The notes under the pieces were generated by a model. It made no database searches. It saw only the letters and a list, made by a program, of their open reading frames with translations, and was not told the DNA's origin. 59,569 nt of DNA from a virus (Duplodnaviria; Caudoviricetes). Location: positions 1 through 59,569 of the IMG/VR virus record IMGVR_UViG_3300047560_000779; one strand, given 5' to 3'. Positions within the stretch are counted from its first letter, which is position 1, and each line of letters starts with the position of its first letter. This document shows, piece by piece, positions 5,834 through 38,767 of this stretch. Both the position numbers and the translations under genes were made by a program.

Positions 5834-6042
5834 CAGACTTTGACTTACTGATCGTAAGCCTCGGGCTCAACGTGTGCTTCCTTGCATACATGTATGGACA
5901 GCGCGTGAAGATTGCCATCATGACTGTGGCGTTACGTGAAGTCTCGTACCTCATGGGACACATCGCTGATGGTAAGGCAATGCCCAAGCGTGACAGCAAG
6001 GGTGAGATTCGTATAAAGGATTTACGCAATGAGACTAATTGA
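5830..6042 (+). CDS. Small membrane-anchored protein
   Basis: N-terminal hydrophobic helix; ATGA coupling. Confidence 0.65.
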   Translation: MTDFDLLIVSLGLNVCFLAYMYGQRVKIAIMTVALREVSYLMGHIADGKAMPKRDSKGEIRIKDLRNETN

Positions 6043-6364
6043 CATAGTGTTTCGACCAATCAAAACATCGCGCTTGATACTGCGCATCTTGCGTGAGAGC
6101 GAGATCAACATCGAGTTCAAACCCAAGCGGCCTCCATCAAAGATTGATAGCGGGTTCGTTGTCCTTGGTAGCAGTTACATGATGCCAGCATCGTCGTTCA
6201 AGTTAATTGCGCAAGACATTGTTAAGGTGGACTATGACGGATACGGCGATAGCCGCATATGGAGGCGACATAAAGATCAATCAATCAGCCCGACTACTGT
6301 GTCCTTCGAGCAAGCAGTAGCAATGTGTGTAAACGAAAAACTGGAGGCCGCAAATGGCAACTAA
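6029..6364 (+). CDS. Hypothetical protein
   Basis: 111 aa, ending SFEQAVAMCVNEKLEAA. Confidence 0.7.
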   Translation: MRLIDIVFRPIKTSRLILRILRESEINIEFKPKRPPSKIDSGFVVLGSSYMMPASSFKLIAQDIVKVDYDGYGDSRIWRRHKDQSISPTTVSFEQAVAMCVNEKLEAANGN

Positions 6365-24569: not shown

Positions 24570-27500
24570 TTAGATAATGCCAGCCACAAACTGTTTGTTG
24601 GCTTTGGTTGTCTCGATACCGCCGACCACTGAAGCTTCACGCTTCCTAGCAGCCACGATGGCTTTGAACAGGTCTGACATTGGCTGTCTAGTGTACCCGT
24701 TCTTAGCCCGAGCATCCTGCAATTCCTGCCAACTTTGGCGGGCTTCTGCCATGGCTGCGGTGTCACCTTCGCGGTTAGCTGCAACGTAGTCACCCTTGAT
24801 CTCAGATGCCTTGGTTGAGTAGAACTTGTCGAATTCTTTCTCCACGTTCTGGCGGTACTGACGTTGGGTAATGGTATTTGTTGGCAGACCAACAGCTTGG
24901 AACGCTGCATCCACCATGCTGACTTCTTCTGGGCTGAGCACGATGTCGCCGTTACGCATTGTGATGCCCTCGGTAGCAAACCGGTAGCCCTTCATGGCAT
25001 TGGCAAAACCTGTTGGCAGGGCTTGCTCCATACCTTTGTACAGCTCACCTTGGCCAACTAGACCCAGTGCATCGGCAAACTTCAAGCCAAGGGCAGCGGT
25101 TGGGCCCATCAAACCAACCAACATCTTCTCTGCGCCAGAACGGCTAGTCAGGTCAACGTCAGTAAATGGCAGGATCGAGGCAACGTTTTCCATAGCCAGC
25201 TTCTTGCCAATGGATTCAGCACCGAAGTATGCAGGCACACCGCGCAACAGTAAGTTGGCCAGCTCTGGATCACCGATGGCTTGACGCAGTTGGTACTCCA
25301 AGTCCTTGGGTTCGTCATCGTCGCCAAAGATATTGACCAGCAAGTTGCCGATCTGAGAAGCAAACGGTACACCCAGTGCACCGCCCAACACAGACATGTG
25401 AGCCGTGATGAACTTGAGGGAACGACGCGCCACCATACGTTCCTCAGCGGATGCACCCTTGAACGCGTTCTTGATGAGCTTGCCCAACATGGACAACTGG
25501 ATGATCTGGAAGCGCTTGAACTGACCGACCACCTTACCCACGTTGGAGTTCAGGATACGAGGTGTGTTGAAACCGTCGTATGAACCATGGGTGTTGGACA
25601 CAGTCTCAGCGGCAAACTTAGTAGCAGCTTCAGTGTTGTTGACTCCGTAGCGTTGGAGGTATCCGCGATAGGCAGCCACGGCAGCCGTTGCACGGTTGAC
25701 CGCTTCAATGCGGTTGTTGACTCCGTTGAGCTTGCGCATCACAGAGCTAGTCAGGGTACGCTCGTTGGCGTATACGACTGCGTCGGCATCAATACCAATG
25801 TCGATCTTGCCCATACGGACAAGTTTCAAGAGCATATCGCGCACGTCGGCTGGAGCTTTGGAGAAATCCAAGTGCTCGTTGACGTTGGTGTCTTTCACCA
25901 AGCTGACAACATCTTTGTATGCGGCGTTGATCGAACGCAGTGAACGGTGATAACCCAAACGGCCAGCCATGTAAGGCAGAGACAAGACGTAGGTCTGAGT
26001 CATCTGTTGCAGGTAGAACGCAGGGTTGAACGCCAAGAACCAAGTGTGGCCAAGTCGAGTCAATGCTCGTGCTAGTGGCGCTGGTGTCTTGTAGTTGATG
26101 TCGTTAGCGTAGCGCTTGAGCAACTCGTTCAGGTATGGACGAGCGTTGGTTGGATCGCCCTTGGCCTCGTCGCGCATGTTGCTGATGGCGTCAGTGATGT
26201 CACCGTTGTGCTTTAAGCTAGCCAAGAAGTGAGCGTCGGCACGGCCACGGGTGGCCAAGTTGCGCATCATGTCCTTGTCAGCACCGGAGATGTTCTTACG
26301 CTGCATTGCTGTGCGGTGGGCGCTAGCCTCAGACACAGTGGCCAAGTACAGGTCAGACACAGTCTTATTCAGAGCGGTCAGGACTTCTTGGTCAGCCATA
26401 GTGATCTCACCAGACTTGATGCGGCGAGTCAGCATGTTGCGCAGACGGGTGATACCCATGAACAAGTCGCTACCGCCGACAAAGGCTTCGCTGACTTCCT
26501 TCTCTGCACCGTACACCTGCTGGTAACGACCGGATGCTTTCCACTGCTCAGCCTTGTTCTGGGCTTCAGCCATGGTCTCAGCAAACTCAACGATGTAGTG
26601 GTTGGCGTCCGACTGGTTCTGCTCGAGCCACTTAGTAGCATCGAGGTCGCCTTGAGCGGCCAGCTTCTCAGCATCCGCGTAAGTCTCGGACTTGGCCACG
26701 GCCACGTAATCGCCATAACGACCGAGGTAGGCGTAAGGCATGTCGTTCTTGATGTTCATCAAGCGGTCGAACTTGGACTTCCATGCACTGCGGTCAGCAG
26801 CGATGTTGTTCAGTTGCTCTTGGTCGCCATTGGCATCCAGCTCGCGTTGAGAGAACTCTTTGTCCGCAGCAGCCGTGACGGCTTGCTGTTTTAAACGCAG
26901 GGATTGGTAGCCATGGTCAAACACCATCTTGATGACTTGCTGCGCGGCAGCAGGCATTGCGTCAAAGCGACGGGCCATCTCATCGTCAGGCTTGATGTTT
27001 GGGTTGTATGCGGGTACGTAGCCCCACTTGCTGTCTGAGGTGGAGTCAAAAATGAACTCGTTCACGCTACCACGGCCAGTGCCTTGCAGCTCTGTGGGCA
27101 GCTTCTCAAACGCTTCTTCAATCTTCTGGATGCGTTGCTCATGCTCAATGCGAGTACCTTGGCGCTCGTACTGGTTGGCCAGATAGTCTTGGGCCGAAGG
27201 CATGTACTTGCTAGCACCATTGACCACGTCTTCAGTAATACCAGCAGCCAACAGGATGTGCTTGACGTCCTCATTGCGGTTGACCAGTGCGTCTTTACCG
27301 GAGTTCATCAAGGTGTCCACAACTGTTTTGGTTGTGGGTTGGAGCGGCTTAGGCAGACCAGCAATCTTGCGAGCTATTACCGCACGGCCTTTGTACAACA
27401 GTTGGTTTTCAGCCGCAACATGCTCTGGAGCGATCTTAGCCAGCTCCGCAGCTGGGTAGTTAGCACGTAGCATGACGGTATTGGCTTCGGCTTCCCCGCC

Positions 27501-30500
27501 GATCATCTCGTACAGCTCTTGGCGTAACTGCATTACGAATCGGTTTCCACCTAGTGGAGCCCATGCGCGGCTTACTTTGTGCGACAGTGCCCCGGCAGCG
27601 TCAGCCAGTTTGTCATAGAGGTCTTCCATTTGCATGACTTGAGCATGCGTTGGGTTGTCCCCGCTCTTTTCTTCGAGCGCACTGACCTTGTCCTCCATAT
27701 CGCGGATGGCCTGATGCTCAGCTGCAAATGGTTTTAAGAGTTGAATGGCTCTACGGATGTTCTCGGAGTACTCTCCGCTGAACACGTCTTCTTTTTGGCG
27801 AGCAAGTTTCTCAAGAGCCTGTGGATCATATGGGTCCACAGCTTCTAGATTACCGCCTTTAGCAAAGCCTTCGCGTTCTTGGATTGCGTGTTGGACCTCG
27901 TGCAACAAAGTATGGAAAGCCCCCAGTTCGGCGGTGGGGCCAAAAACCTCGTCAGCACCGATCCGAATGACATCGTTAGCTGAGTCGTAAGACCCATGGC
28001 CAGCGGGCAAGTTGGAGCTACGGATAACTTCAATATCGCGCAGTGAAGGAATGGTCTTGAACAGCGTAGGGTGGTCGAGCACGTCGTCCAACATCATTGG
28101 GCGGTCTTCAGGGAAATCTTCCCATGTAACGCCACCTACAAACTTGGCATCTGTATCTGGCACTTCGTAGCGCCATTTACCTTCTGGGCCCTTGTACCAG
28201 CCCGTGCGATTCCAGATGTCCCAAGCATTGTCACCAGTACTATCCATGACTTTTGCTACTGCCAGACGTCCCTTGAACTCCGCTTTAGCGTCACGGTCCA
28301 TCTCATTTACACTGCGCACACCGGCCAGCATTGACTGGCTAGCTGTATCAGAGTCGACGTTCTTAGGTGCAATGATGAGCTTGCGGTCAGCCACTGAGTC
28401 CAAGAACTTCTTCATGGTCTCGGTTGGTAGATATTGCTGGCCTTTGAGCGAATAGTAGAACTTCTTCAAAGCAGCGCCAAGCTTGGCAAAGAATGTCTCC
28501 ACCACACCAACTGGTTTCTCAGATGTAGTCGCCCACTTGGACACTTGATCTGCGTACCACTCGGAGAAGCTTTTCCAGTATCCAGTGAGCTCTGACGCTT
28601 GGATATCGCCGGAAGACTTAGTTGTGCGTCCTGTTGTTCGAGCGCGAAGCGCAGTAATGAACTCACGCCCTGTCCCACCAATATTGGCCTTGATGAACTT
28701 GCTATGCTCATCACGAATAGCTTGCTTTAGTTCCGCAGGTGCATTCTCGAACGCTACCCGTTCATGGACGTGCCCAAGCTCGTGGGCCAATGTTTCAAGC
28801 ATCTTCAGGTAGCTAGTACCTTTGGTGAACGCAATGTAGTAGTCGTCACCCATCTTGCGCATAGAGCCAGCCTCGTTGGCGTCTAGTCCAGCAGAACTGA
28901 TAGCACGATGAGGCCCAGTGAACTTGTCTTTGTCCGCACGAGCATCTTCCATTGTCGTGACATAGACATTGGCTTTGATGTTTAGCAGGTTCTTCCAGCC
29001 AGCAATTACGCCACCAAGTCGGCGGTCAACACCGCTAGAAATTGCTATGCCATTACCACTGAACTTAATGAATGGATTGGCAGCATGTTGGGCTGCATCG
29101 GCAGTTTCAATTTCTTGTTTGGCAGCAAGCAGCTTAGCCCGCATGTCTTCAGGGATTGCCGCGACGTTGCCTAAGCTCCCAATATCCATACGCCAACGAG
29201 TAGTTCCATTTGCAGGAACGTAGACAGGCTGGCCAGACAGGATGGAATATCCACGGATCAAAGCCCATGGGCCTTCTTGCCATACAACAGAGCCGCCAGT
29301 TGCAGCAGCATGGTCTTCTGCATTCTTACGTTCTTCGTCGGTAGTGGCAGCTTTAATCGGCTGGGCAGCATTGAGCTTCTTCAGTTCAGCAACCACATCA
29401 GCACGAGTCCAGTTTTCCTCGCCGTACTCAATGAACGTCTCTTGCTCATCCTTGGTCAATGCCATGAACGGAGGCGCACCGGGGATGTCCTTAACGACAG
29501 AGTCCCATGCGTCAGCAGCTTTCTCTGCGTCGGTCTTTATTTCTTTGGCTTCTGCTTGGGCTTCACCTTCGGCGGCAGCTTGGCCCCCTTCGGCGTTTCC
29601 TTTGCCCACCGCTTTGCGACCTCCGGCTCGTTTGCGAACAGGAACTTTCTCTGTGCTTGGCTCTTGAACGGCATTTGGTTTCCCCTGTAGTTTCTTGGCG
29701 GCTTCACCTGCTAGGCGCTTCTCGTCCTTAGCAATTTCTTCTTCGGTCTGCTCAAAGTCAGCGCCGTACTCACCCTTGAGTTTGTTGCGGGCATACAACT
29801 GTTTGGCGTAATCCATCTCCACAGCCAGACGCGCTTCCAGTTCTTCCACTGGAGTCTTAGGAGTTTTGCCAGCCTCGACAGCCTCTTTGGCTTTCTCAAG
29901 GGCTTCCATCGTCTTCAGGATGCGGGCGTTGTTTGTCTCGATAGCGTTGTATCGTTCTTGGACACTAATGCTCTTACGAGTACGGATGCTCAGGTTAGGA
30001 GCAGCCTCTGCTTCGCTAGCAGTTTCAGGTGTTGGGCCTTCATCACGGCCACCTTCAGAAGTCAACTCGCCAACAGCGAATTCTTCCTCACCAGTGGTGT
30101 CAGACTCAACGGGTTCTTCAGTAGCAGATGTGCTCTGGCCGGTGTCTTCTTCCTCGCCAGTGGCTTGGGCAGCCGCAGTGGCTTTGGTCTGGCGCTTGGC
30201 TTCAATGCCTTCGAGCAGCTGCTCCAAGTCGCGCATGGTCATGCCTTGGCTCTCGGCCACGGTAGTGGCAGCCGCAATGATCTTGGCGCTGTTCTTCTCT
30301 AGGAAGTTGGGCAGTTCAGCATGCCATTTAGCCGCTTGGTCAGGAGTAATGTCCATGGCCTCTGCGATCTCAGGCAGCGAGTCGAGCTTAGCGCCACCCC
30401 AGAAGGCTTGGAAGAACTCACGTTTCTTCTGTGCAGAGGCTTCGTTCAAACGACCATATGGGCGGATGACCATCTGCAACACGCCAGCGATGAGGCGGTC

Positions 30501-32747
30501 GGCTTTGTTCTCTTGCTCACGGTCACCGGCTTGGTCCGCGATCTGCTCTTGGATGTCGCCAGTGGCTTGGTTGGTTTCGACAGCCCGCTCCCATGCTTGT
30601 TTGAGCGCAGGAGTGAGCGACGCGTACGGTGTATCCGTAGCGTCCATGTCGTTCCACAATTCCTCAGCCGGGCTTAGCTTGGCTTCTTGGCGTTGTGCTG
30701 CTTGAGGAGCTGGAGCAGGTGTTGGTTGAACACTTGGAGCCCCTTGTTTACCTGTTGCTTTAACTCTGACGGGTACGCCGAGTTTGGCTTTGGGCTTGGT
30801 AGGCTGAGCTTCTTCACTTGGTGTCTCGCTTACTTGCGCTTGCGGGGCATTGCCACCGCCAACATTGGATACATTTCCGGTGCTTGTCCGTACTCCGCCT
30901 GCTGGTGGCTGTCCAACTTGGAGGCCAAGCGGTCCCTCTCCGACACTTGCTGCTCCGACGGGTTGAACGCCAGTGGGTCGTACACCCCCATCTTCTCCAG
31001 CGACTGTTTCTGTTGTTCCGCCTGCGATTGGAACTTCTCGAATCCCGGCATTGTCTTGCAGTGGCAATTTTCCATTTTTAGCTCCTTTAGTAGCTTGGGC
31101 TTGTTGAGCGGCTGTGTAGCCAGTGGTATCTTCGCCGGTCAAGGCGTAGTGGATAGCGTTGAGCTGGTCTAGCTTAGCGCCCTTCTCGGTCTGAGACAAG
31201 GTCTCAAGAATCGTTGCGGCCTGCTGTACGTTCTGTACATGACCAATTTGAAACGCGTCGGCAGTCTTGGCCAATGCTTTCATGACTTTGTCTGCGGCAC
31301 CCACTGGATTGCCTGCGTCCAGCTTGACGCTAATTACTTTACCGCCTGTCAGCTCGTTGGCTTGCGCAATGGCGTCGGCCACAGTATGGGCAGTCTCTGG
31401 AAGCGCGTTGAACTTGGCAGCCAAGGTGTTACCGAACGCATTGATCTTCGCATCGTCAAACAGCGTAGCGCCAAAGATGTTGAGCTGGCCAGTGTTCTCA
31501 GGCGAGTACTGTGCGCCAAGTGTTTGGAATGTCTTGTCACGGGCAAGGCGGTTGGCGTCATCTTGCTGCTGACGCTGTTGGGCAGCAAACTCAGCCTGCG
31601 AAATACCTGTGGCCGCTTGGGCGACGTCAGTCGTGCCGCCTGTAACCGCTGGAGCCGTGATAGGTGTTTTTTGTGGAGGCAGCACTGGGAGCTCACCACC
31701 ATACATAGTCGAACGACCAGCCAATGGATCAGCCGCACGGCCAAGCAGACCAGCAATGCGGGAGTCAGGAGCAACCGTATCATTAGCTTGGAACGCCTGT
31801 GCTACATCGTTCGCTGGGGGTGCAACTTCACCAGCAGCTTGGCTACGACGCCATCCACCACCCACACCACCGGCCAGACCACCAAGGGTCGCGCCACCAA
31901 TGAAAGACTCTTTGAATCGCTCTTGGGCAGCATCGCTTAGGAACGCTTCATTTGGGTCGACCGACATGCGGCCAACTTGGTTCAGCATCTCTTGGCCAGT
32001 TTCCGAGGCACCTTCTTTGAGGCCAACGCCAGTAGCAGTAGCCGCAGTACGAGCAGCAGCACCAGTCAATCCAGTGCCACGGTCAAGGAGGTTTACTGTG
32101 TTCTTGAACGCAGTGCCCTTCATCAGAGCGCCTTCAACGCCAACAGCGTTTAGAGCGGCATAAGGTACGGCCAAGGCAGCAGCGACGCCGCCACGGGTCT
32201 CGCCGGATTGCTCACGTTGGTTGCTCAGCACATCGCCAACGGCAGATGGGTAAGAAGCCGCTGTACCTCCAGCCAATGCAGCACGGGCAGTACCGCCAAT
32301 GGCACGACCAGCAACACCGCCAACTAAAGCCTCAGCAGCATATGGGAGAGATTGAATGGCCAAGCCTTTGGCGTAGCTACCAAAGTCGCCTACACCACGA
32401 ACGTTTTCCCAAGAGTCAACTGCGCCCATTTCACGGGCACGTTGTGATGCGATGTCAGCGCGGAGTTCATTTTCCTGACGACCTTTGGTCATCCAGTTCG
32501 CCACCCCTTGTGCGCCCAATCCTTCAGCAGCCGCTTCGCCGACACCATACAAACCAGCTTGGTAGCGGTCAATGGAAGACGAGCCTTGCTGCTTTGTGAT
32601 CCCACCCTTTACTTCGCCAAATCCAAGTTTGCCTGCGATGTCTTTAGGGTCAGCGCCGATTAGTTTCGAGACTTCGTCAACGACATCGAAGTCTGACATT
32701 TTGCTCCCGTTGGGGAGCATCGCTCTTAATTGGTCAATCGACGCCAT
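24570..32747 (-). CDS. Giant internal virion (ejection) polyvalent protein, 2725 aa
   Basis: LPD23-like block (IWNRTGWYKGPEGKWRYEVPD...LDHPTLF...LLHEVQHAIQEREGF), a second zincin motif HELGH, and a C-terminal LLRGVPA/PLxRFG-LPD39-type region. Confidence 0.8.
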   Translation of the reverse strand: MASIDQLRAMLPNGSKMSDFDVVDEVSKLIGADPKDIAGKLGFGEVKGGITKQQGSSSIDRYQAGLYGVGEAAAEGLGAQGVANWMTKGRQENELRADIASQRAREMGAVDSWENVRGVGDFGSYAKGLAIQSLPYAAEALVGGVAGRAIGGTARAALAGGTAASYPSAVGDVLSNQREQSGETRGGVAAALAVPYAALNAVGVEGALMKGTAFKNTVNLLDRGTGLTGAAARTAATATGVGLKEGASETGQEMLNQVGRMSVDPNEAFLSDAAQERFKESFIGGATLGGLAGGVGGGWRRSQAAGEVAPPANDVAQAFQANDTVAPDSRIAGLLGRAADPLAGRSTMYGGELPVLPPQKTPITAPAVTGGTTDVAQAATGISQAEFAAQQRQQQDDANRLARDKTFQTLGAQYSPENTGQLNIFGATLFDDAKINAFGNTLAAKFNALPETAHTVADAIAQANELTGGKVISVKLDAGNPVGAADKVMKALAKTADAFQIGHVQNVQQAATILETLSQTEKGAKLDQLNAIHYALTGEDTTGYTAAQQAQATKGAKNGKLPLQDNAGIREVPIAGGTTETVAGEDGGVRPTGVQPVGAASVGEGPLGLQVGQPPAGGVRTSTGNVSNVGGGNAPQAQVSETPSEEAQPTKPKAKLGVPVRVKATGKQGAPSVQPTPAPAPQAAQRQEAKLSPAEELWNDMDATDTPYASLTPALKQAWERAVETNQATGDIQEQIADQAGDREQENKADRLIAGVLQMVIRPYGRLNEASAQKKREFFQAFWGGAKLDSLPEIAEAMDITPDQAAKWHAELPNFLEKNSAKIIAAATTVAESQGMTMRDLEQLLEGIEAKRQTKATAAAQATGEEEDTGQSTSATEEPVESDTTGEEEFAVGELTSEGGRDEGPTPETASEAEAAPNLSIRTRKSISVQERYNAIETNNARILKTMEALEKAKEAVEAGKTPKTPVEELEARLAVEMDYAKQLYARNKLKGEYGADFEQTEEEIAKDEKRLAGEAAKKLQGKPNAVQEPSTEKVPVRKRAGGRKAVGKGNAEGGQAAAEGEAQAEAKEIKTDAEKAADAWDSVVKDIPGAPPFMALTKDEQETFIEYGEENWTRADVVAELKKLNAAQPIKAATTDEERKNAEDHAAATGGSVVWQEGPWALIRGYSILSGQPVYVPANGTTRWRMDIGSLGNVAAIPEDMRAKLLAAKQEIETADAAQHAANPFIKFSGNGIAISSGVDRRLGGVIAGWKNLLNIKANVYVTTMEDARADKDKFTGPHRAISSAGLDANEAGSMRKMGDDYYIAFTKGTSYLKMLETLAHELGHVHERVAFENAPAELKQAIRDEHSKFIKANIGGTGREFITALRARTTGRTTKSSGDIQASELTGYWKSFSEWYADQVSKWATTSEKPVGVVETFFAKLGAALKKFYYSLKGQQYLPTETMKKFLDSVADRKLIIAPKNVDSDTASQSMLAGVRSVNEMDRDAKAEFKGRLAVAKVMDSTGDNAWDIWNRTGWYKGPEGKWRYEVPDTDAKFVGGVTWEDFPEDRPMMLDDVLDHPTLFKTIPSLRDIEVIRSSNLPAGHGSYDSANDVIRIGADEVFGPTAELGAFHTLLHEVQHAIQEREGFAKGGNLEAVDPYDPQALEKLARQKEDVFSGEYSENIRRAIQLLKPFAAEHQAIRDMEDKVSALEEKSGDNPTHAQVMQMEDLYDKLADAAGALSHKVSRAWAPLGGNRFVMQLRQELYEMIGGEAEANTVMLRANYPAAELAKIAPEHVAAENQLLYKGRAVIARKIAGLPKPLQPTTKTVVDTLMNSGKDALVNRNEDVKHILLAAGITEDVVNGASKYMPSAQDYLANQYERQGTRIEHEQRIQKIEEAFEKLPTELQGTGRGSVNEFIFDSTSDSKWGYVPAYNPNIKPDDEMARRFDAMPAAAQQVIKMVFDHGYQSLRLKQQAVTAAADKEFSQRELDANGDQEQLNNIAADRSAWKSKFDRLMNIKNDMPYAYLGRYGDYVAVAKSETYADAEKLAAQGDLDATKWLEQNQSDANHYIVEFAETMAEAQNKAEQWKASGRYQQVYGAEKEVSEAFVGGSDLFMGITRLRNMLTRRIKSGEITMADQEVLTALNKTVSDLYLATVSEASAHRTAMQRKNISGADKDMMRNLATRGRADAHFLASLKHNGDITDAISNMRDEAKGDPTNARPYLNELLKRYANDINYKTPAPLARALTRLGHTWFLAFNPAFYLQQMTQTYVLSLPYMAGRLGYHRSLRSINAAYKDVVSLVKDTNVNEHLDFSKAPADVRDMLLKLVRMGKIDIGIDADAVVYANERTLTSSVMRKLNGVNNRIEAVNRATAAVAAYRGYLQRYGVNNTEAATKFAAETVSNTHGSYDGFNTPRILNSNVGKVVGQFKRFQIIQLSMLGKLIKNAFKGASAEERMVARRSLKFITAHMSVLGGALGVPFASQIGNLLVNIFGDDDEPKDLEYQLRQAIGDPELANLLLRGVPAYFGAESIGKKLAMENVASILPFTDVDLTSRSGAEKMLVGLMGPTAALGLKFADALGLVGQGELYKGMEQALPTGFANAMKGYRFATEGITMRNGDIVLSPEEVSMVDAAFQAVGLPTNTITQRQYRQNVEKEFDKFYSTKASEIKGDYVAANREGDTAAMAEARQSWQELQDARAKNGYTRQPMSDLFKAIVAARKREASVVGGIETTKANKQFVAGII
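29537..29674 (-). CDS. Nested out-of-frame 45-aa basic protein MPFKSQAQRKFLFANEPEVAKRWAKETPKGAKLP...
   Basis: Translated by hand; AGGGG RBS 7 nt upstream; resembles a small stand-alone phage protein family (recalled, not searched). Confidence 0.6.
   Translation of the reverse strand: MPFKSQAQRKFLFANEPEVAKRWAKETPKGAKLPPKVKPKQKPKK
30830..31075 (-). CDS. Nested out-of-frame 81-aa ORF
   Basis: Strong RBS AAAGGAG-n6-ATG inside the giant gene; same alternative frame as 29537..29674. Confidence 0.45.
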   Translation of the reverse strand: MENCHCKTMPGFEKFQSQAEQQKQSLEKMGVYDPLAFNPSEQQVSERDRLASKLDSHQQAEYGQAPEMYPMLAVAMPRKRK

Positions 32748-37707: not shown

Positions 37708-38322
37708 TTACGCAAGTGCTGTTCCGTGGTCAATTAACCCTAAGGCCAACTGAGTGTGTTTCACGCGATCGTCTAGACCAATCGTGCCACCGTTAATTTT
37801 TTTAGTAAGTCCTACCCAGTCTCCGGCCTCGGCCAGAGCGTTGCAGTTATGCGTGCTCCAGAACCAGCCAGCAGTAAGCGCGGCGTACTTCGGTGTAGAC
37901 ACCAAGTCAGGGTTGGCTACAAAGTCCACCCCAAGAGCCTTACTAGCGTGGAAGTAATTAGCGTGGCCAGTGAGTTGGATACAGCCACGACCGCGAAAAC
38001 GCCAGCCATCACCAGAAGCTTCGTCACGATTTCCCATACGTGAGCTGTACACGTTGTTGGCGATTTTTCGTGGATTACCGGCGTAGGCATTTGCGACTTC
38101 AAGGGTAGGGAACCGTTTGGCCCACAGCTTCATCAGCGTGGCGGCTTTGTAGTTGAGGTTTTCTTCAAGGATACGGAATTGAGCGCACTCGTGGCCACAC
38201 TGGCCAATGAATGCTGCCTGTTTTTTAGGCGTGTCGATTCCGAATTTCTCAAAGGTATCGTTGAGCGCATCAACCCAGACTGGGTCAATGTGCATAGCTT
38301 TAAGTTGTTCAGCGGTTACCAT
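37708..38322 (-). CDS. Glycoside hydrolase family 19 endolysin
   Basis: AAFIGQCGHEC, EENLNY, FRGRGCIQLTG, TKKINGG. Confidence 0.92.
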   Translation of the reverse strand: MVTAEQLKAMHIDPVWVDALNDTFEKFGIDTPKKQAAFIGQCGHECAQFRILEENLNYKAATLMKLWAKRFPTLEVANAYAGNPRKIANNVYSSRMGNRDEASGDGWRFRGRGCIQLTGHANYFHASKALGVDFVANPDLVSTPKYAALTAGWFWSTHNCNALAEAGDWVGLTKKINGGTIGLDDRVKHTQLALGLIDHGTALA

Positions 38323-38767
38323 TTGCGGCCTCCCTTACTTGCTCGTAGGCTGCGATGCAGGCGTTGAGCTGGTTGATGGCGCGGTCCCCGTCTGCTGCGA
38401 TTTGAGCAATAAGTCGGAGAGTCTCGATGTCAGATTCGCTTCCCGCTTGGTTCCCACTTCCACTGGGAGCGGGGGCACCTGCAACGGCTTGTATGCAACC
38501 TGAGGAGGGGAGGCGCACCCGGCCAGCGTTGATAAGGCGATCAAGGTCAGACTGTTTTTTAGCGATAGCATCATTTGCATCCTTCAGTTCGGTTGAGGTA
38601 GCGCTGAGTTGTTCATTCAGCTTGTGCTCGGCTTGGCGAACTTGTTCGTTCTTGAGAGCAATCTCCGCTTGCATCTCTTGATCTCGTTGCTCAAAACCGG
38701 CATGGTGGCCATAGAAGTAAGAGGCGATCGCTAGAAAGATCGCCCCCAGAATTAAATGGGGGTTCAT
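38309..38767 (-). CDS. Rz-like inner-membrane spanin
   Basis: N-terminal transmembrane helix, coiled coil, GRVRL, C-terminal GDRAINQLNACIAAY. Confidence 0.85.
   Translation of the reverse strand: MNPHLILGAIFLAIASYFYGHHAGFEQRDQEMQAEIALKNEQVRQAEHKLNEQLSATSTELKDANDAIAKKQSDLDRLINAGRVRLPSSGCIQAVAGAPAPSGSGNQAGSESDIETLRLIAQIAADGDRAINQLNACIAAYEQVREAANGNR
38335..38580 (-). CDS. Rz1-like outer-membrane spanin lipoprotein, nested in Rz
   Basis: Signal peptide with LAGC lipobox and Pro-rich mature part, embedded in an alternative frame of Rz. Confidence 0.75.
   Translation of the reverse strand: MQMMLSLKNSLTLIALSTLAGCASPPQVAYKPLQVPPLPVEVGTKREANLTSRLSDLLLKSQQTGTAPSTSSTPASQPTSK

What the first reader, a model, noticed from the sequence alone, without database searches (positions are those of the whole stretch)
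29537..31075. Up to three small genes overprinted in one alternative frame inside the 2725-aa virion gene
Seen: three ORFs lie in the same shifted frame within the low-complexity linker of the giant protein. They are 30830..31075 (81 aa, AAAGGAG RBS), 30674..30817 (47 aa, GTG start, amphipathic ELKQQVNKGLQVFNQHLLQLLKQH, weak RBS) and 29537..29674 (45 aa, MPFKSQAQRKFLFANEPEVAKRWAKETPKGAKLPPKVKPKQKPKK, AGGGG RBS). The last resembles a small stand-alone phage protein family as I recall it. The main frame over these stretches reads like off-frame sequence. Inference: the giant gene absorbed or reads through a cluster of small genes that may still be translated. Standard callers would miss these.
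Basis: partly seen in the sequence, partly recalled or inferred. Interest (0 to 1): 0.72.

Follow-up and report, generated by a model that had tools for sequence, protein, structure and literature searches.

The report
Two hidden genes inside giant gene
Two of the three small reading frames are real, conserved genes written one base out of step inside a freshwater phage's giant virion-protein gene, a layout that gene callers miss, while the third is unsupported.

Summary
The three ORFs exist as described, all on the minus strand in the +1 frame of the 2725-codon gene 24570..32747. Their length is not unusual: that frame holds 16 ORFs of 40 aa or more. Conservation is what separates them.

ORF3 (45 aa, 29537..29674) belongs to a large unnamed phage family. 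Members are usually stand-alone 40-57 aa genes. In 21 of 80 fetched loci the gene lies inside a giant ORF, always at the same +1 offset.

ORF1 (81 aa, 30830..31075) has 56 relatives in viral contigs, all nested the same way. Its ATG and the AAAGGAG before it are conserved.

In both, variation peaks at the nested frame's third codon positions. Close pairs show 3-4 times more changes silent only in the nested frame than silent only in the giant frame. Of 166 alternative-frame segments, only these two beat the main frame in every locus hit, 133/133 and 60/60.

ORF2 (47 aa, GTG) recurs only in one near-identical relative and is unsupported.

Function is unknown. I infer small basic virion- or DNA-associated proteins translated from internal starts. 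No report of this layout appeared in five literature searches.

The parts
24570..32747 (-). Host gene: a 2725-codon giant virion (polyvalent, DarB-like) protein gene, the last gene of the structural operon.
   Evidence: ORF and translation are. Pfam LPD23 scores 49.2 bits against a cutoff of 27. The C-terminal 700 aa match phrog_10089 (DarB-like) at 3.9e-50 and phrog_11358 at 8.7e-49. Upstream lie an internal virion protein and virion structural genes. Of the 40 strain variants listed for 24603-27135, 38 fall on main-frame third codon positions.
30830..31075 (-). ORF1: nested gene of 81 aa in the +1 frame. It has a hydrophilic Q/E/S-rich body and a short hydrophobic stretch followed by a basic C-terminal end.
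   Evidence: All 56 relatives in viral contigs are nested at the same offset. In metagenome contigs 49 of 50 are nested and 1 is cut by the contig end. Nucleotide entropy at nested-frame positions 1/2/3 is 0.87/0.69/1.04. Amino-acid identity is 0.597 in the nested frame against 0.415 in the giant frame, and the nested frame is higher in 898 of 903 pairs. Among close pairs, 321 changes are silent only in the nested frame and 96 only in the giant frame. The nested frame scores above the main frame in 60 of 60 loci.
31082..31088 (-). Shine-Dalgarno AAAGGAG, 6 nt before the ORF1 ATG. The giant frame reads it as T-K-G-A-K.
   Evidence: Sequence. The same motif stands before the ATG in L005, L028 and L054 and in most of the 56 loci listed.
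29537..29674 (-). ORF3: nested gene of 45 aa in the +1 frame. It has an invariant MPFKS N-terminus, a predicted helical hairpin and a Lys-rich tail.
   Evidence: It matches phrog_1375 at E 7.4e-5. In 21 of 80 loci it lies inside an ORF of 1261 codons or more, always at the same offset. It is also nested in MW202828 and in Flavobacterium elemo phages. Entropy at positions 1/2/3 is 0.75/0.55/1.01 in nested copies and 0.71/0.56/1.47 in stand-alone copies. Among nested close pairs, 265 changes are silent only in the nested frame and 70 only in the giant frame. The nested frame scores above the main frame in 133 of 133 loci. AF2 gives helices 6-15 and 17-26 at pLDDT 77.7.
29681..29686 (-). Shine-Dalgarno-like AGGGGA before the ORF3 ATG.
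   Evidence: Sequence. An SD-like motif lies 7-16 nt upstream in 37 of 50 nested copies, against 9.4% of flanking positions.
30674..30817 (-). ORF2: 47 aa, GTG start, +1 frame. It is not supported as a gene.
   Evidence: It recurs only in L087, at 93.6% identity in the nested frame against 89.8% in the main frame, which is too close to discriminate. Other relatives carry unrelated sequence at this place. A profile of the ORF that follows ORF1 in the L085 group does not hit it. No family match was found.
29352..29519 (-). Giant-frame module (W..P.AP.F..L..EQ..F...NW) directly after ORF3. Together with ORF3 it forms a conserved island between swapped cassettes.
   Evidence: A strict pattern finds the module after ORF3 in 23 of 47 nested loci and in none of the stand-alone loci. 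Strain contigs of X3 and X11 rejoin the window at 29359 and 29374. Contigs of X3 and X6 diverge right after 29674.

Best explanation
ORF1 (30830..31075) and ORF3 (29537..29674) are real protein-coding genes that lie wholly inside the giant virion-protein gene, in its +1 frame.

Each has its own Shine-Dalgarno sequence and ATG. The likely mechanism is that ribosomes start internally on the late structural mRNA and make two small proteins with basic tails alongside the giant protein. The giant frame reads the same DNA only as a floppy, low-complexity linker.

For ORF3 the small gene is the older one. It is a widespread stand-alone phage gene, and the giant reading frame was extended across it.

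ORF2 is most likely just an open stretch in a hydrophilic linker.

Shown here: both frames stay open, the nested frames are under stronger purifying selection than the host frame, the starts and ribosome-binding sites are conserved, and ORF3 has stand-alone homologues.

Inferred: translation itself, and function. My best guess for function is small virion- or DNA-associated proteins of head assembly or ejection, at about 1 in 3.
For: Same offset everywhere.
- ORF3 lies in an ORF of 1261 codons or more in 21 of 80 loci, always with the giant codon starting at small start +2.
- It has the same offset in two GenBank phage groups.
- ORF1 is nested in 56 of 56 viral-contig loci and in 49 of 50 metagenome loci, with 1 cut by the contig end.

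Start codons.
- An ATG begins 79 of 80 ORF3 copies; the other begins with GTG.
- An ATG lies within 60 nt of the match start in 55 of 56 ORF1 copies; the remaining locus is cut by the contig end.

Codon periodicity follows the nested frame.
- ORF3 entropy at positions 1/2/3 is 0.75/0.55/1.01. Positions 1 and 2 are as constrained as in 30 stand-alone genes, at 0.71/0.56.
- ORF1 gives 0.87/0.69/1.04.

Changes in close pairs (15% nt divergence or less).
- ORF1: 321 are silent only in the nested frame and 96 only in the giant frame.
- Nested ORF3: 265 against 70.

Internal control. Of 166 alternative-frame segments of the giant gene, only these two score above the main frame in every locus hit, 133/133 and 60/60. 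Outside the two regions the count is 0, except for three small segments with 1-2 loci each.

Host frame kept open. 22 of 30 stand-alone ORF3 genes have a stop in the giant-equivalent frame, and no nested copy does.

Ribosome-binding sites. AAAGGAG is conserved before ORF1. An SD-like motif precedes 37 of 50 nested ORF3 copies, against a 9.4% background.
Against: - There is no direct evidence of translation. The only RNA-library contigs cover 30529-30890 and may be DNA.
- By length the ORFs are unremarkable.
- Sequences in the pair counts are related, so the counts are not independent events.
- The viral and metagenome collections overlap, since several contigs have equal lengths.
- ORF1 folds poorly alone, at pLDDT 67.8. 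It has no stand-alone homologue and no family match.
- 13 of 50 nested ORF3 copies lack an SD-like motif.
- The functional guess rests on heterogeneous neighbourhoods. Only about 8 of the 26 stand-alone loci examined place the gene near portal, terminase or scaffold genes. Others lie near tail-sheath, replication or lysis genes.
Confidence: 0.85

Rival explanations
1. All three ORFs, ORF2 included, form a cluster of nested genes. ORF2 would be a fast-evolving third gene that starts right after the ORF1 stop.
For: After the ORF1 stop the +1 frame stays open for 40 codons or more in 28 of 42 loci, against 17.7% of 2280 background intervals. A start codon often lies within the first 5 codons. In the L085 group, a 46-53 aa ORF at this place is conserved between L085 and L115/L109, where the main frame is not.
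Against: The window's ORF2 recurs only in near-identical L087. It is not hit by the L085-group profile at E up to 10. In the 'MNKP' group the two frames are equally conserved in the first half (amino-acid entropy 0.93 against 0.94), and the main frame wins in the second half (1.03 against 0.60). Stops in a +1 frame need T at the host codon's second position. Hydrophilic linkers therefore keep that frame open without any selection (reasoning from the genetic code). ORF2 has a GTG start and a weak RBS.
Confidence: 0.2
2. The +1-frame segments are C-terminal extensions reached by programmed ribosomal frameshifting from the giant frame. That would give truncated giant-protein variants rather than independent genes.
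For: Phage structural genes do use programmed frameshifts (recalled: T7 10A/10B, lambda G/GT; the review PMC5009743 was seen in a search listing only). In the window the nested frame is open for 21 codons before the ORF1 ATG and 10 codons before the ORF3 ATG.
Against: In 12 of 21 giant-embedded ORF3 copies a nested-frame stop lies 5 codons or fewer before the ATG. The ATG and SD are conserved. Stand-alone homologues begin exactly at MPFKS. Upstream of the ATG the main frame is the better conserved one, 0.299 against 0.235 for ORF1 and 0.135 against 0.120 for ORF3.
Confidence: 0.03
3. The conservation reflects a nucleotide-level element, such as an RNA structure, a recombination site or a regulatory site, and not a second protein.
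For: ORF3 sits on a conserved island between swapped cassettes, and strain contigs break exactly at its ATG. Antisense and +2 frames over the same DNA also score above the main frame in some loci.
Against: Variation has three-base periodicity in the nested sense frame. The sense +1 frame is the best-scoring frame in all loci. The ORF3 protein is homologous to free-standing genes, which have their own stops in the other frames. I ran no RNA-structure test.
Confidence: 0.03
4. The nested ORFs are relics of absorbed genes that are no longer expressed.
For: The giant frame runs through them. Public annotation and proteome-free records give no product.
Against: Positions 1 and 2 of nested ORF3 are as constrained as in stand-alone genes. 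ATG, stop and SD are retained across lineages whose giant proteins no longer match by BLAST: only 6 of the 23 loci with nested ORF3 have tblastn hits to the window's giant.
Confidence: 0.05

Closest known systems
Embedded two-component spanin genes (lambda Rz1 inside Rz, +1 frame). For PMC6139136 and PMC5295617 I saw the search listing and the start of the abstract only.
   Same: A small same-strand gene lies wholly inside a larger gene, one base out of frame, with its own start. This window carries a classic example at 38335..38580 inside 38309..38767.
   Different: Rz1 is a lipoprotein with a signal peptide and lipobox, and it is the functional partner of its host gene. ORF1 and ORF3 have neither feature. 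They sit in linkers of a giant virion protein. ORF3 is far more often a free-standing gene, and no partnership with the host protein is shown.
phrog_1375 (PHROGs family of unknown function) and the unnamed stand-alone MPFKS small-protein family.
   Same: ORF3 matches phrog_1375 at E 7.4e-5 and 24.1 bits. It shares the invariant M-P-F-(K)-S...Q N-terminus, the helical hairpin and the basic tail with 88 aligned relatives. Examples in cultured phages are the MW574966 39-aa CDS, Streptomyces phage FlowerPower gp48, and unannotated ORFs in S-CBS2, P-RSP2 and OQ984151.
   Different: Here the gene is nested and unannotated. The family has no Pfam, NCBIfam or PDB relative and no known function.
Overprinted genes of small viruses (phiX174 E in D, K, B in A). 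Review PMC8227390 was seen in a search listing and abstract start only. The phiX174 details are recalled.
   Same: One DNA stretch encodes two proteins in two frames. One of the two frames is compositionally odd and poorly conserved.
   Different: In the textbook case the nested gene is the young one. For ORF3 the nested gene is the old, widespread one, and the host's linker frame is the newcomer (inferred). The genome is a 60-kb dsDNA phage and not a size-limited microvirus.
Large polyvalent proteins of phages (Iyer et al. 2017, PMC5512222). I ran a term search of the full text only. This comparison is for the host gene.
   Same: It is a giant multidomain virion protein with an LPD23 domain and a DarB-like C-terminus. 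Cassettes are swapped between strains.
   Different: The paper's text has 0 occurrences of 'overlapping' or 'frameshift'. Nested out-of-frame genes are not part of the description.
DUF3008 (PF11450).
   Same: The protein-atlas feature search names it as the nearest named cluster, at score 0.87, which is a lead only. It is a small basic viral or bacterial protein family.
   Different: None of the 89 family members matches it at E up to 1. ORF3 is not a member.

Membership tests
Embedded same-strand overlapping gene (Rz1-in-Rz type architecture) | The ORF lies wholly inside a longer same-strand ORF in another frame. | tested here: met
   Searches show this for the window. The same offset is seen in relatives.
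Embedded same-strand overlapping gene (Rz1-in-Rz type architecture) | The nested ORF has its own start codon and ribosome-binding site. | tested here: met
   ATG with AAAGGAG for ORF1. ATG with an SD-like motif in 37 of 50 nested ORF3 copies, against 9.4% background.
Embedded same-strand overlapping gene (Rz1-in-Rz type architecture) | The nested frame is under protein-level purifying selection. | tested here: met
   Met for ORF1 and ORF3. Not met or inconclusive for ORF2.
Embedded same-strand overlapping gene (Rz1-in-Rz type architecture) | The host frame is kept open by selection across the nested gene. | tested here: met
   No stop occurs in any nested copy. 22 of 30 stand-alone ORF3 genes have a stop in that frame.
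Embedded same-strand overlapping gene (Rz1-in-Rz type architecture) | The protein product has been detected. | not testable with these tools
   No proteomic or ribosome-profiling data are on hand. RNA-library contigs cover only 30529-30890 and may be DNA.
o-spanin (Rz1-like lipoprotein) | N-terminal signal peptide with a lipobox Cys, and a Pro-rich mature part. | tested here: not met
   ORF1 begins M-E-N-C-H-C-K and ORF3 begins M-P-F-K-S, with no hydrophobic signal in either. The true Rz1-like ORF of this window has L-A-G-C.
phrog_1375 | Significant match to the family profile. | tested here: met
   ORF3 scores E 7.4e-5 and 24.1 bits, profile positions 17-56 of 70. Seven of the eight longer family members scanned (five locus ORFs and P0134, P0135) match at 6.6e-5 to 5.9e-3; P0136 has no match. 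PHROGs has no curated cutoff.
DUF3008 (PF11450) | Match to the Pfam model. | tested here: not met
   0 of 89 members match at E up to 1. The window peptide has no Pfam hit.
Programmed-frameshift product | The alternative frame is open from a slippery site, with no independent start needed. | tested here: not met
   A nested-frame stop lies 5 codons or fewer before the ATG in 12 of 21 giant-embedded ORF3 copies. ATG and SD are conserved. I ran no formal slippery-site scan.
Large polyvalent protein (host gene) | A giant protein that carries LPD-type domains. | tested here: met
   PF18838 LPD23 at E 4.6e-13 and 49.2 bits, against a cutoff of 27. DarB-like phrog_10089 at 3.9e-50.
Large polyvalent protein (host gene) | The protein is packaged in the virion and delivered to the host. 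| not testable with these tools
   The only support is its position after internal-virion and structural genes.

The most novel reading that the evidence does not exclude
Giant phage virion (polyvalent) protein genes routinely hide a layer of conserved small genes in the +1 frame of their linkers. At least some arose because the giant frame was extended through pre-existing small genes, so the host frame is the younger one there. The nested genes would encode virion or DNA-associated microproteins. They would also serve as conserved DNA islands at which effector cassettes are swapped between strains. ORF1 would be a gene family that exists only in nested form.
Probability: 0.3. Interest if true: 0.8.

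Novelty: new variant of a known kind. Interest (0 to 1): 0.66.

Why it matters
Out-of-frame nested genes in dsDNA phages are textbook rarities, with Rz1 the standard example.

Here two unrelated small-gene families are kept nested, at one fixed offset, across lineages whose giant host proteins have diverged beyond BLAST recognition. None of it is annotated in the public records I checked.

This points to a systematic blind spot of gene callers in the largest genes of phage genomes. It gives a clean natural case in which the nested gene is older than the frame that covers it. It also supplies two testable microproteins: one is very widespread, and the other is so far seen only in nested form.

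Earlier unchecked notes of this same scan report similar +1-frame genes in other giant virion genes. The layout may therefore be general.

Tried and rejected
There is no result.
- DNA search of the region against GenBank phages found no match. ORF1 by tblastn against the same collection found no match.
- Pfam, NCBIfam, PDB-sequence and atlas searches gave no family for ORF1. ORF3 got only phrog_1375 and a weak DUF3008 lead.
- The AF2 model of ORF1 is too weak (pLDDT 67.8) to be worth a fold search. I did not fold-search the 45-aa hairpin.
- Fused forms gave no functional hint. The 926-aa and other N-terminal fusions, and the 4 longer database proteins, carry no informative domain.
- I looked for the un-fused ancestor, meaning a stand-alone ORF3 flanked by homologues of the giant's halves. 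No stand-alone locus has a tblastn hit to the giant or to the module that follows ORF3.
- A microdiversity test on laid contigs was not possible. The variant table shows only 40 of 753 places, all outside the nested genes.
- I tested the idea from earlier notes that nested genes are tied to the enzyme domain before them. For ORF3, strain contigs diverge directly upstream of its ATG while ORF3 is kept, so the idea is not supported here.
- On a 45-aa tree, nested and stand-alone copies need 9 state changes, against 28-32 in the 10 of 200 shuffles that I printed. This fits few origins, but the tree is too weak to say one.
- Literature: and a term search of PMC5512222, found no description of genes nested in giant virion-protein genes. 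This covers only the held library.
Full report
WHAT IS THERE

The window is a phage genome of about 59.6 kb and 52% G+C. Its structural operon lies on the minus strand: large terminase, portal, major head protein, tail fibres, Rz-like spanin, endolysin, an internal virion protein (phrog_511) and two further virion genes. The operon ends with a 2725-codon ORF at 24570..32747.

That giant protein carries a Pfam LPD23 domain, at 49.2 bits against a cutoff of 27. Its C-terminal 700 residues match 'DarB-like' phrog_10089 and phrog_11358. It is therefore a large polyvalent, probably virion-borne protein.

The nearest cultured relatives by major head protein are Rhizobium phages, at 44% identity. Near-identical DNA occurs in freshwater and aquatic metagenome runs.

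THE OBSERVATION

All three ORFs exist exactly as described, on the minus strand and in one frame, one base downstream of the giant frame. The stated ribosome-binding sites are present.

Length alone means nothing here. The +1 frame of this gene holds 16 ORFs of 40 aa or more and 5 stop-free runs of 102 codons or more. A +1-frame stop needs T at the second position of a host codon, so hydrophilic linkers keep that frame open for free.

ORF3 (45 aa, 29537..29674)

The peptide matches phrog_1375 at E 7.4e-5. tblastn against GenBank phages found two kinds of hit.
- Small free-standing genes, for example a 39-aa CDS in MW574966.
- The same peptide inside the giant CDSs of MW202828 and of Flavobacterium elemo phages.

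Translation showed that in those giants it also lies in the +1 frame and starts with ATG-MPFKS.

A pattern scan of IMG/VR found at least 428 relatives. Of the 80 kept, 79 start with ATG. In 21 the gene lies inside a same-strand ORF of 1261-3138 codons, and in 4 more inside ORFs of 289-701 codons. The giant codon starts at small start +2 in every one of these. The rest are 40-57 aa stand-alone genes or N-termini of longer proteins.

Several tests point to selection on the nested frame.
- In 21 nested copies, nucleotide entropy at nested-frame positions 1/2/3 is 0.75/0.55/1.01. In 30 stand-alone genes it is 0.71/0.56/1.47. The protein is therefore as constrained when nested as when free, and only its silent positions pay for the overlap.
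- Amino-acid entropy is 1.04 in the nested frame and 1.60 in the giant frame.
- 22 of 30 stand-alone genes have a stop in the giant-equivalent frame. Its openness in nested copies is therefore selected.
- Among 36 close nested pairs, 265 differences are silent only in the nested frame and 70 only in the giant frame.
- An SD-like motif precedes 37 of 50 nested copies, against 9.4% of flanking positions. The 13 without one are AT-rich genomes.

The host giants are diverse. Several share the phrog_11358 C-terminus with the window, others belong to phrog_32588. Only 6 of the 23 loci with nested ORF3 still match the window's giant by tblastn.

ORF1 (81 aa, 30830..31075)

I did not expect this one to be conserved. 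A tblastn of each nested peptide and of its main-frame counterpart showed the nested frame ahead: 124 against 75 bits in L005, 80 against 31 in L028 and 64 against 24 in L054.

A scan with an alignment found 56 relatives in IMG/VR. All 56 lie in the +1 frame of a giant ORF. An ATG lies near the match start in 55 of them, and the remaining locus is cut by the contig end. A basic C-terminal end and a stop fall at the same place, and AAAGGAG-type sites stand upstream. The giant frame reads those sites as T-K-G-A-K. In 40 of the 56, ORF3 follows 0.94-1.7 kb downstream in the same frame.

Results from other collections:
- In metagenome contigs, 49 of 50 are nested and one is cut by the contig end. 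This collection overlaps IMG/VR, so it is not an independent count.
- Among 185,579 species genomes there is one hit, on a 1261-nt contig.
- Among 1.84 billion representative proteins there are 12 hits, all 55-142 aa.
- In GenBank phages there is none.

On 43 distinct sequences, entropy at positions 1/2/3 is 0.87/0.69/1.04. Mean pairwise identity is 0.597 in the nested frame and 0.415 in the giant frame, and the nested frame is higher in 898 of 903 pairs. In 29 close pairs, 321 changes are silent only in the nested frame and 96 only in the giant frame.

INTERNAL CONTROL

I cut all five alternative frames of the giant gene into 166 stop-to-stop segments of 25 aa or more. I compared each, and its main-frame counterpart, with all loci then held.

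Only the ORF3 and ORF1 segments beat the main frame in every locus hit, 133/133 and 60/60. Other frames over the same two stretches do so in part. Everywhere else the count is 0, except for three small segments with 1-2 loci each.

Upstream of each ATG and downstream of each stop, the main frame is again the better conserved one. In the C-terminal domain, 38 of the 40 listed natural variants fall on main-frame third positions.

ORF2 (47 aa, GTG, 30674..30817)

It recurs only in L087, which is nearly identical there: 93.6% in the nested frame against 89.8% in the main frame. All other relatives carry unrelated sequence at this place.

There is a hint of something general. After the ORF1 stop, the +1 frame stays open for 40 codons or more in 28 of 42 loci, against 17.7% of background intervals. 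One lineage, the L085 group, has a 46-53 aa ORF there that is conserved where the main frame is not.

Against this, that profile does not hit the window's ORF2. In another lineage the frames tie, or the main frame wins. I rate ORF2 at about 0.2.

HOW IT MOST LIKELY WORKS

Shown: two frames are kept open and the nested one is under stronger protein-level selection. ATG, stop and SD are conserved. ORF3 has free-standing homologues.

Inferred: ribosomes start internally on the late mRNA and make the two small proteins.

Frameshifting is unlikely. In 12 of 21 giant-embedded ORF3 copies a nested-frame stop lies within 5 codons of the ATG.

For ORF3 the direction of overprinting is unusual. The small gene is widespread and free-standing in many phage types, while the covering giant frame is a low-complexity linker. 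The giant frame is therefore probably the newcomer (inference). On a weak 45-aa tree, nested copies cluster, needing 9 state changes against about 30 when shuffled. This fits few origins.

FUNCTION

Function is unknown. ORF3 is predicted as a helical hairpin (residues 6-15 and 17-26) plus a Lys-rich tail, at pLDDT 77.7. FlowerPower gp48 extends the tail with AKKAA-type repeats. ORF1 is mostly disordered alone.

Of the 26 stand-alone loci examined, about 8 place the gene beside portal, terminase or scaffold genes. The clearest is L011, with the portal ending at 5989, the small gene at 6001 and the scaffold gene at 6206. Others lie near tail-sheath, replication or lysis genes.

My best guess, at about 1 in 3, is small basic virion- or DNA-associated proteins, in the manner of T7 gp6.7 and gp7.3 (recalled).

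Strain data add one fact. Contigs of two other runs follow the window up to the ORF3 ATG and then diverge. In two runs the 2 kb downstream of 29359 is replaced. ORF3 and the giant-frame module after it (29352..29519, found after ORF3 in at least 23 of 47 nested loci) therefore form a conserved island between swapped cassettes.

COMPARISON AND NOVELTY

The architecture is that of Rz1 inside Rz. The window has its own example at 38335..38580. ORF1 and ORF3 are not spanins, are not in Pfam, NCBIfam or the PDB, and are unannotated where I looked.

Five literature searches and a term search of the polyvalent-protein paper found no description of genes nested in giant virion genes. This covers only the held library.

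Unchecked earlier notes of this scan describe similar +1-frame genes in other giant virion genes. None shares sequence with these two.

VERDICT

I classify the finding as a new variant of a known kind.

Noticed in passing
window 38335..38580 (-), inside 38309..38767 (-): A classic Rz1-like o-spanin of 81 aa, with a signal peptide, L-A-G-C lipobox and Pro-rich body. It is embedded in the +1 frame of the Rz-like i-spanin gene. With ORF1 and ORF3, the phage would carry three nested +1-frame genes.
   Followed up: partly
window 27355..29374 and 29674: Cassette swapping in the giant gene between strains. Runs X3 and X11 replace about 2 kb (27365..29359 and 27355..29374) with 787 and 2054 other letters. 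Contigs of X3 and X6 diverge exactly upstream of the ORF3 ATG.
   Followed up: partly
L085 6247..6384; also L089, L092, L093, L144, L115, L109: A further +1-frame ORF of 46-53 aa starts right after the ORF1 stop. It is conserved between distant members where the giant frame is not. It may be a third nested gene in that lineage. It is not detectably related to the window's ORF2.
   Followed up: partly
L144 (1261-nt contig binned with an Actinomycetota MAG): A one-base frame difference upstream of ORF1 puts the giant's N-terminal part in ORF1's frame, with a stop 13 codons before the ORF1 ATG. This is either a real split of the giant gene or an assembly error. The binning is a weak hint at the host.
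   Followed up: no
L142 2501..2608 (Synechococcus phage S-CBS2), L141 2501..2620 (Prochlorococcus phage P-RSP2), L001 1501..1602 (phage C75C1): Members of the MPFKS small-protein family lie unannotated between annotated genes of cultured or GenBank phages.
   Followed up: no
L143 2501..2719 (Streptomyces phage FlowerPower gene 48): A 72-aa family member with an AKKAA-rich tail sits between genes annotated as 'peptidase' and 'holin'. This context does not fit the head-module neighbourhood seen elsewhere.
   Followed up: no
window 30529..30890: Two short contigs of a metatranscriptome library (X20) cover the ORF2 region and the 3' end of ORF1, and nothing else of the giant gene. They may be DNA carry-over, so they are not evidence of an internal transcript.
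   Followed up: no
L034 3472..3600: One ORF3 copy overlaps the extended N-terminus of a large-terminase ORF at the same +1 offset. Most likely the terminase starts further downstream and the small gene stands alone in front of it.
   Followed up: no
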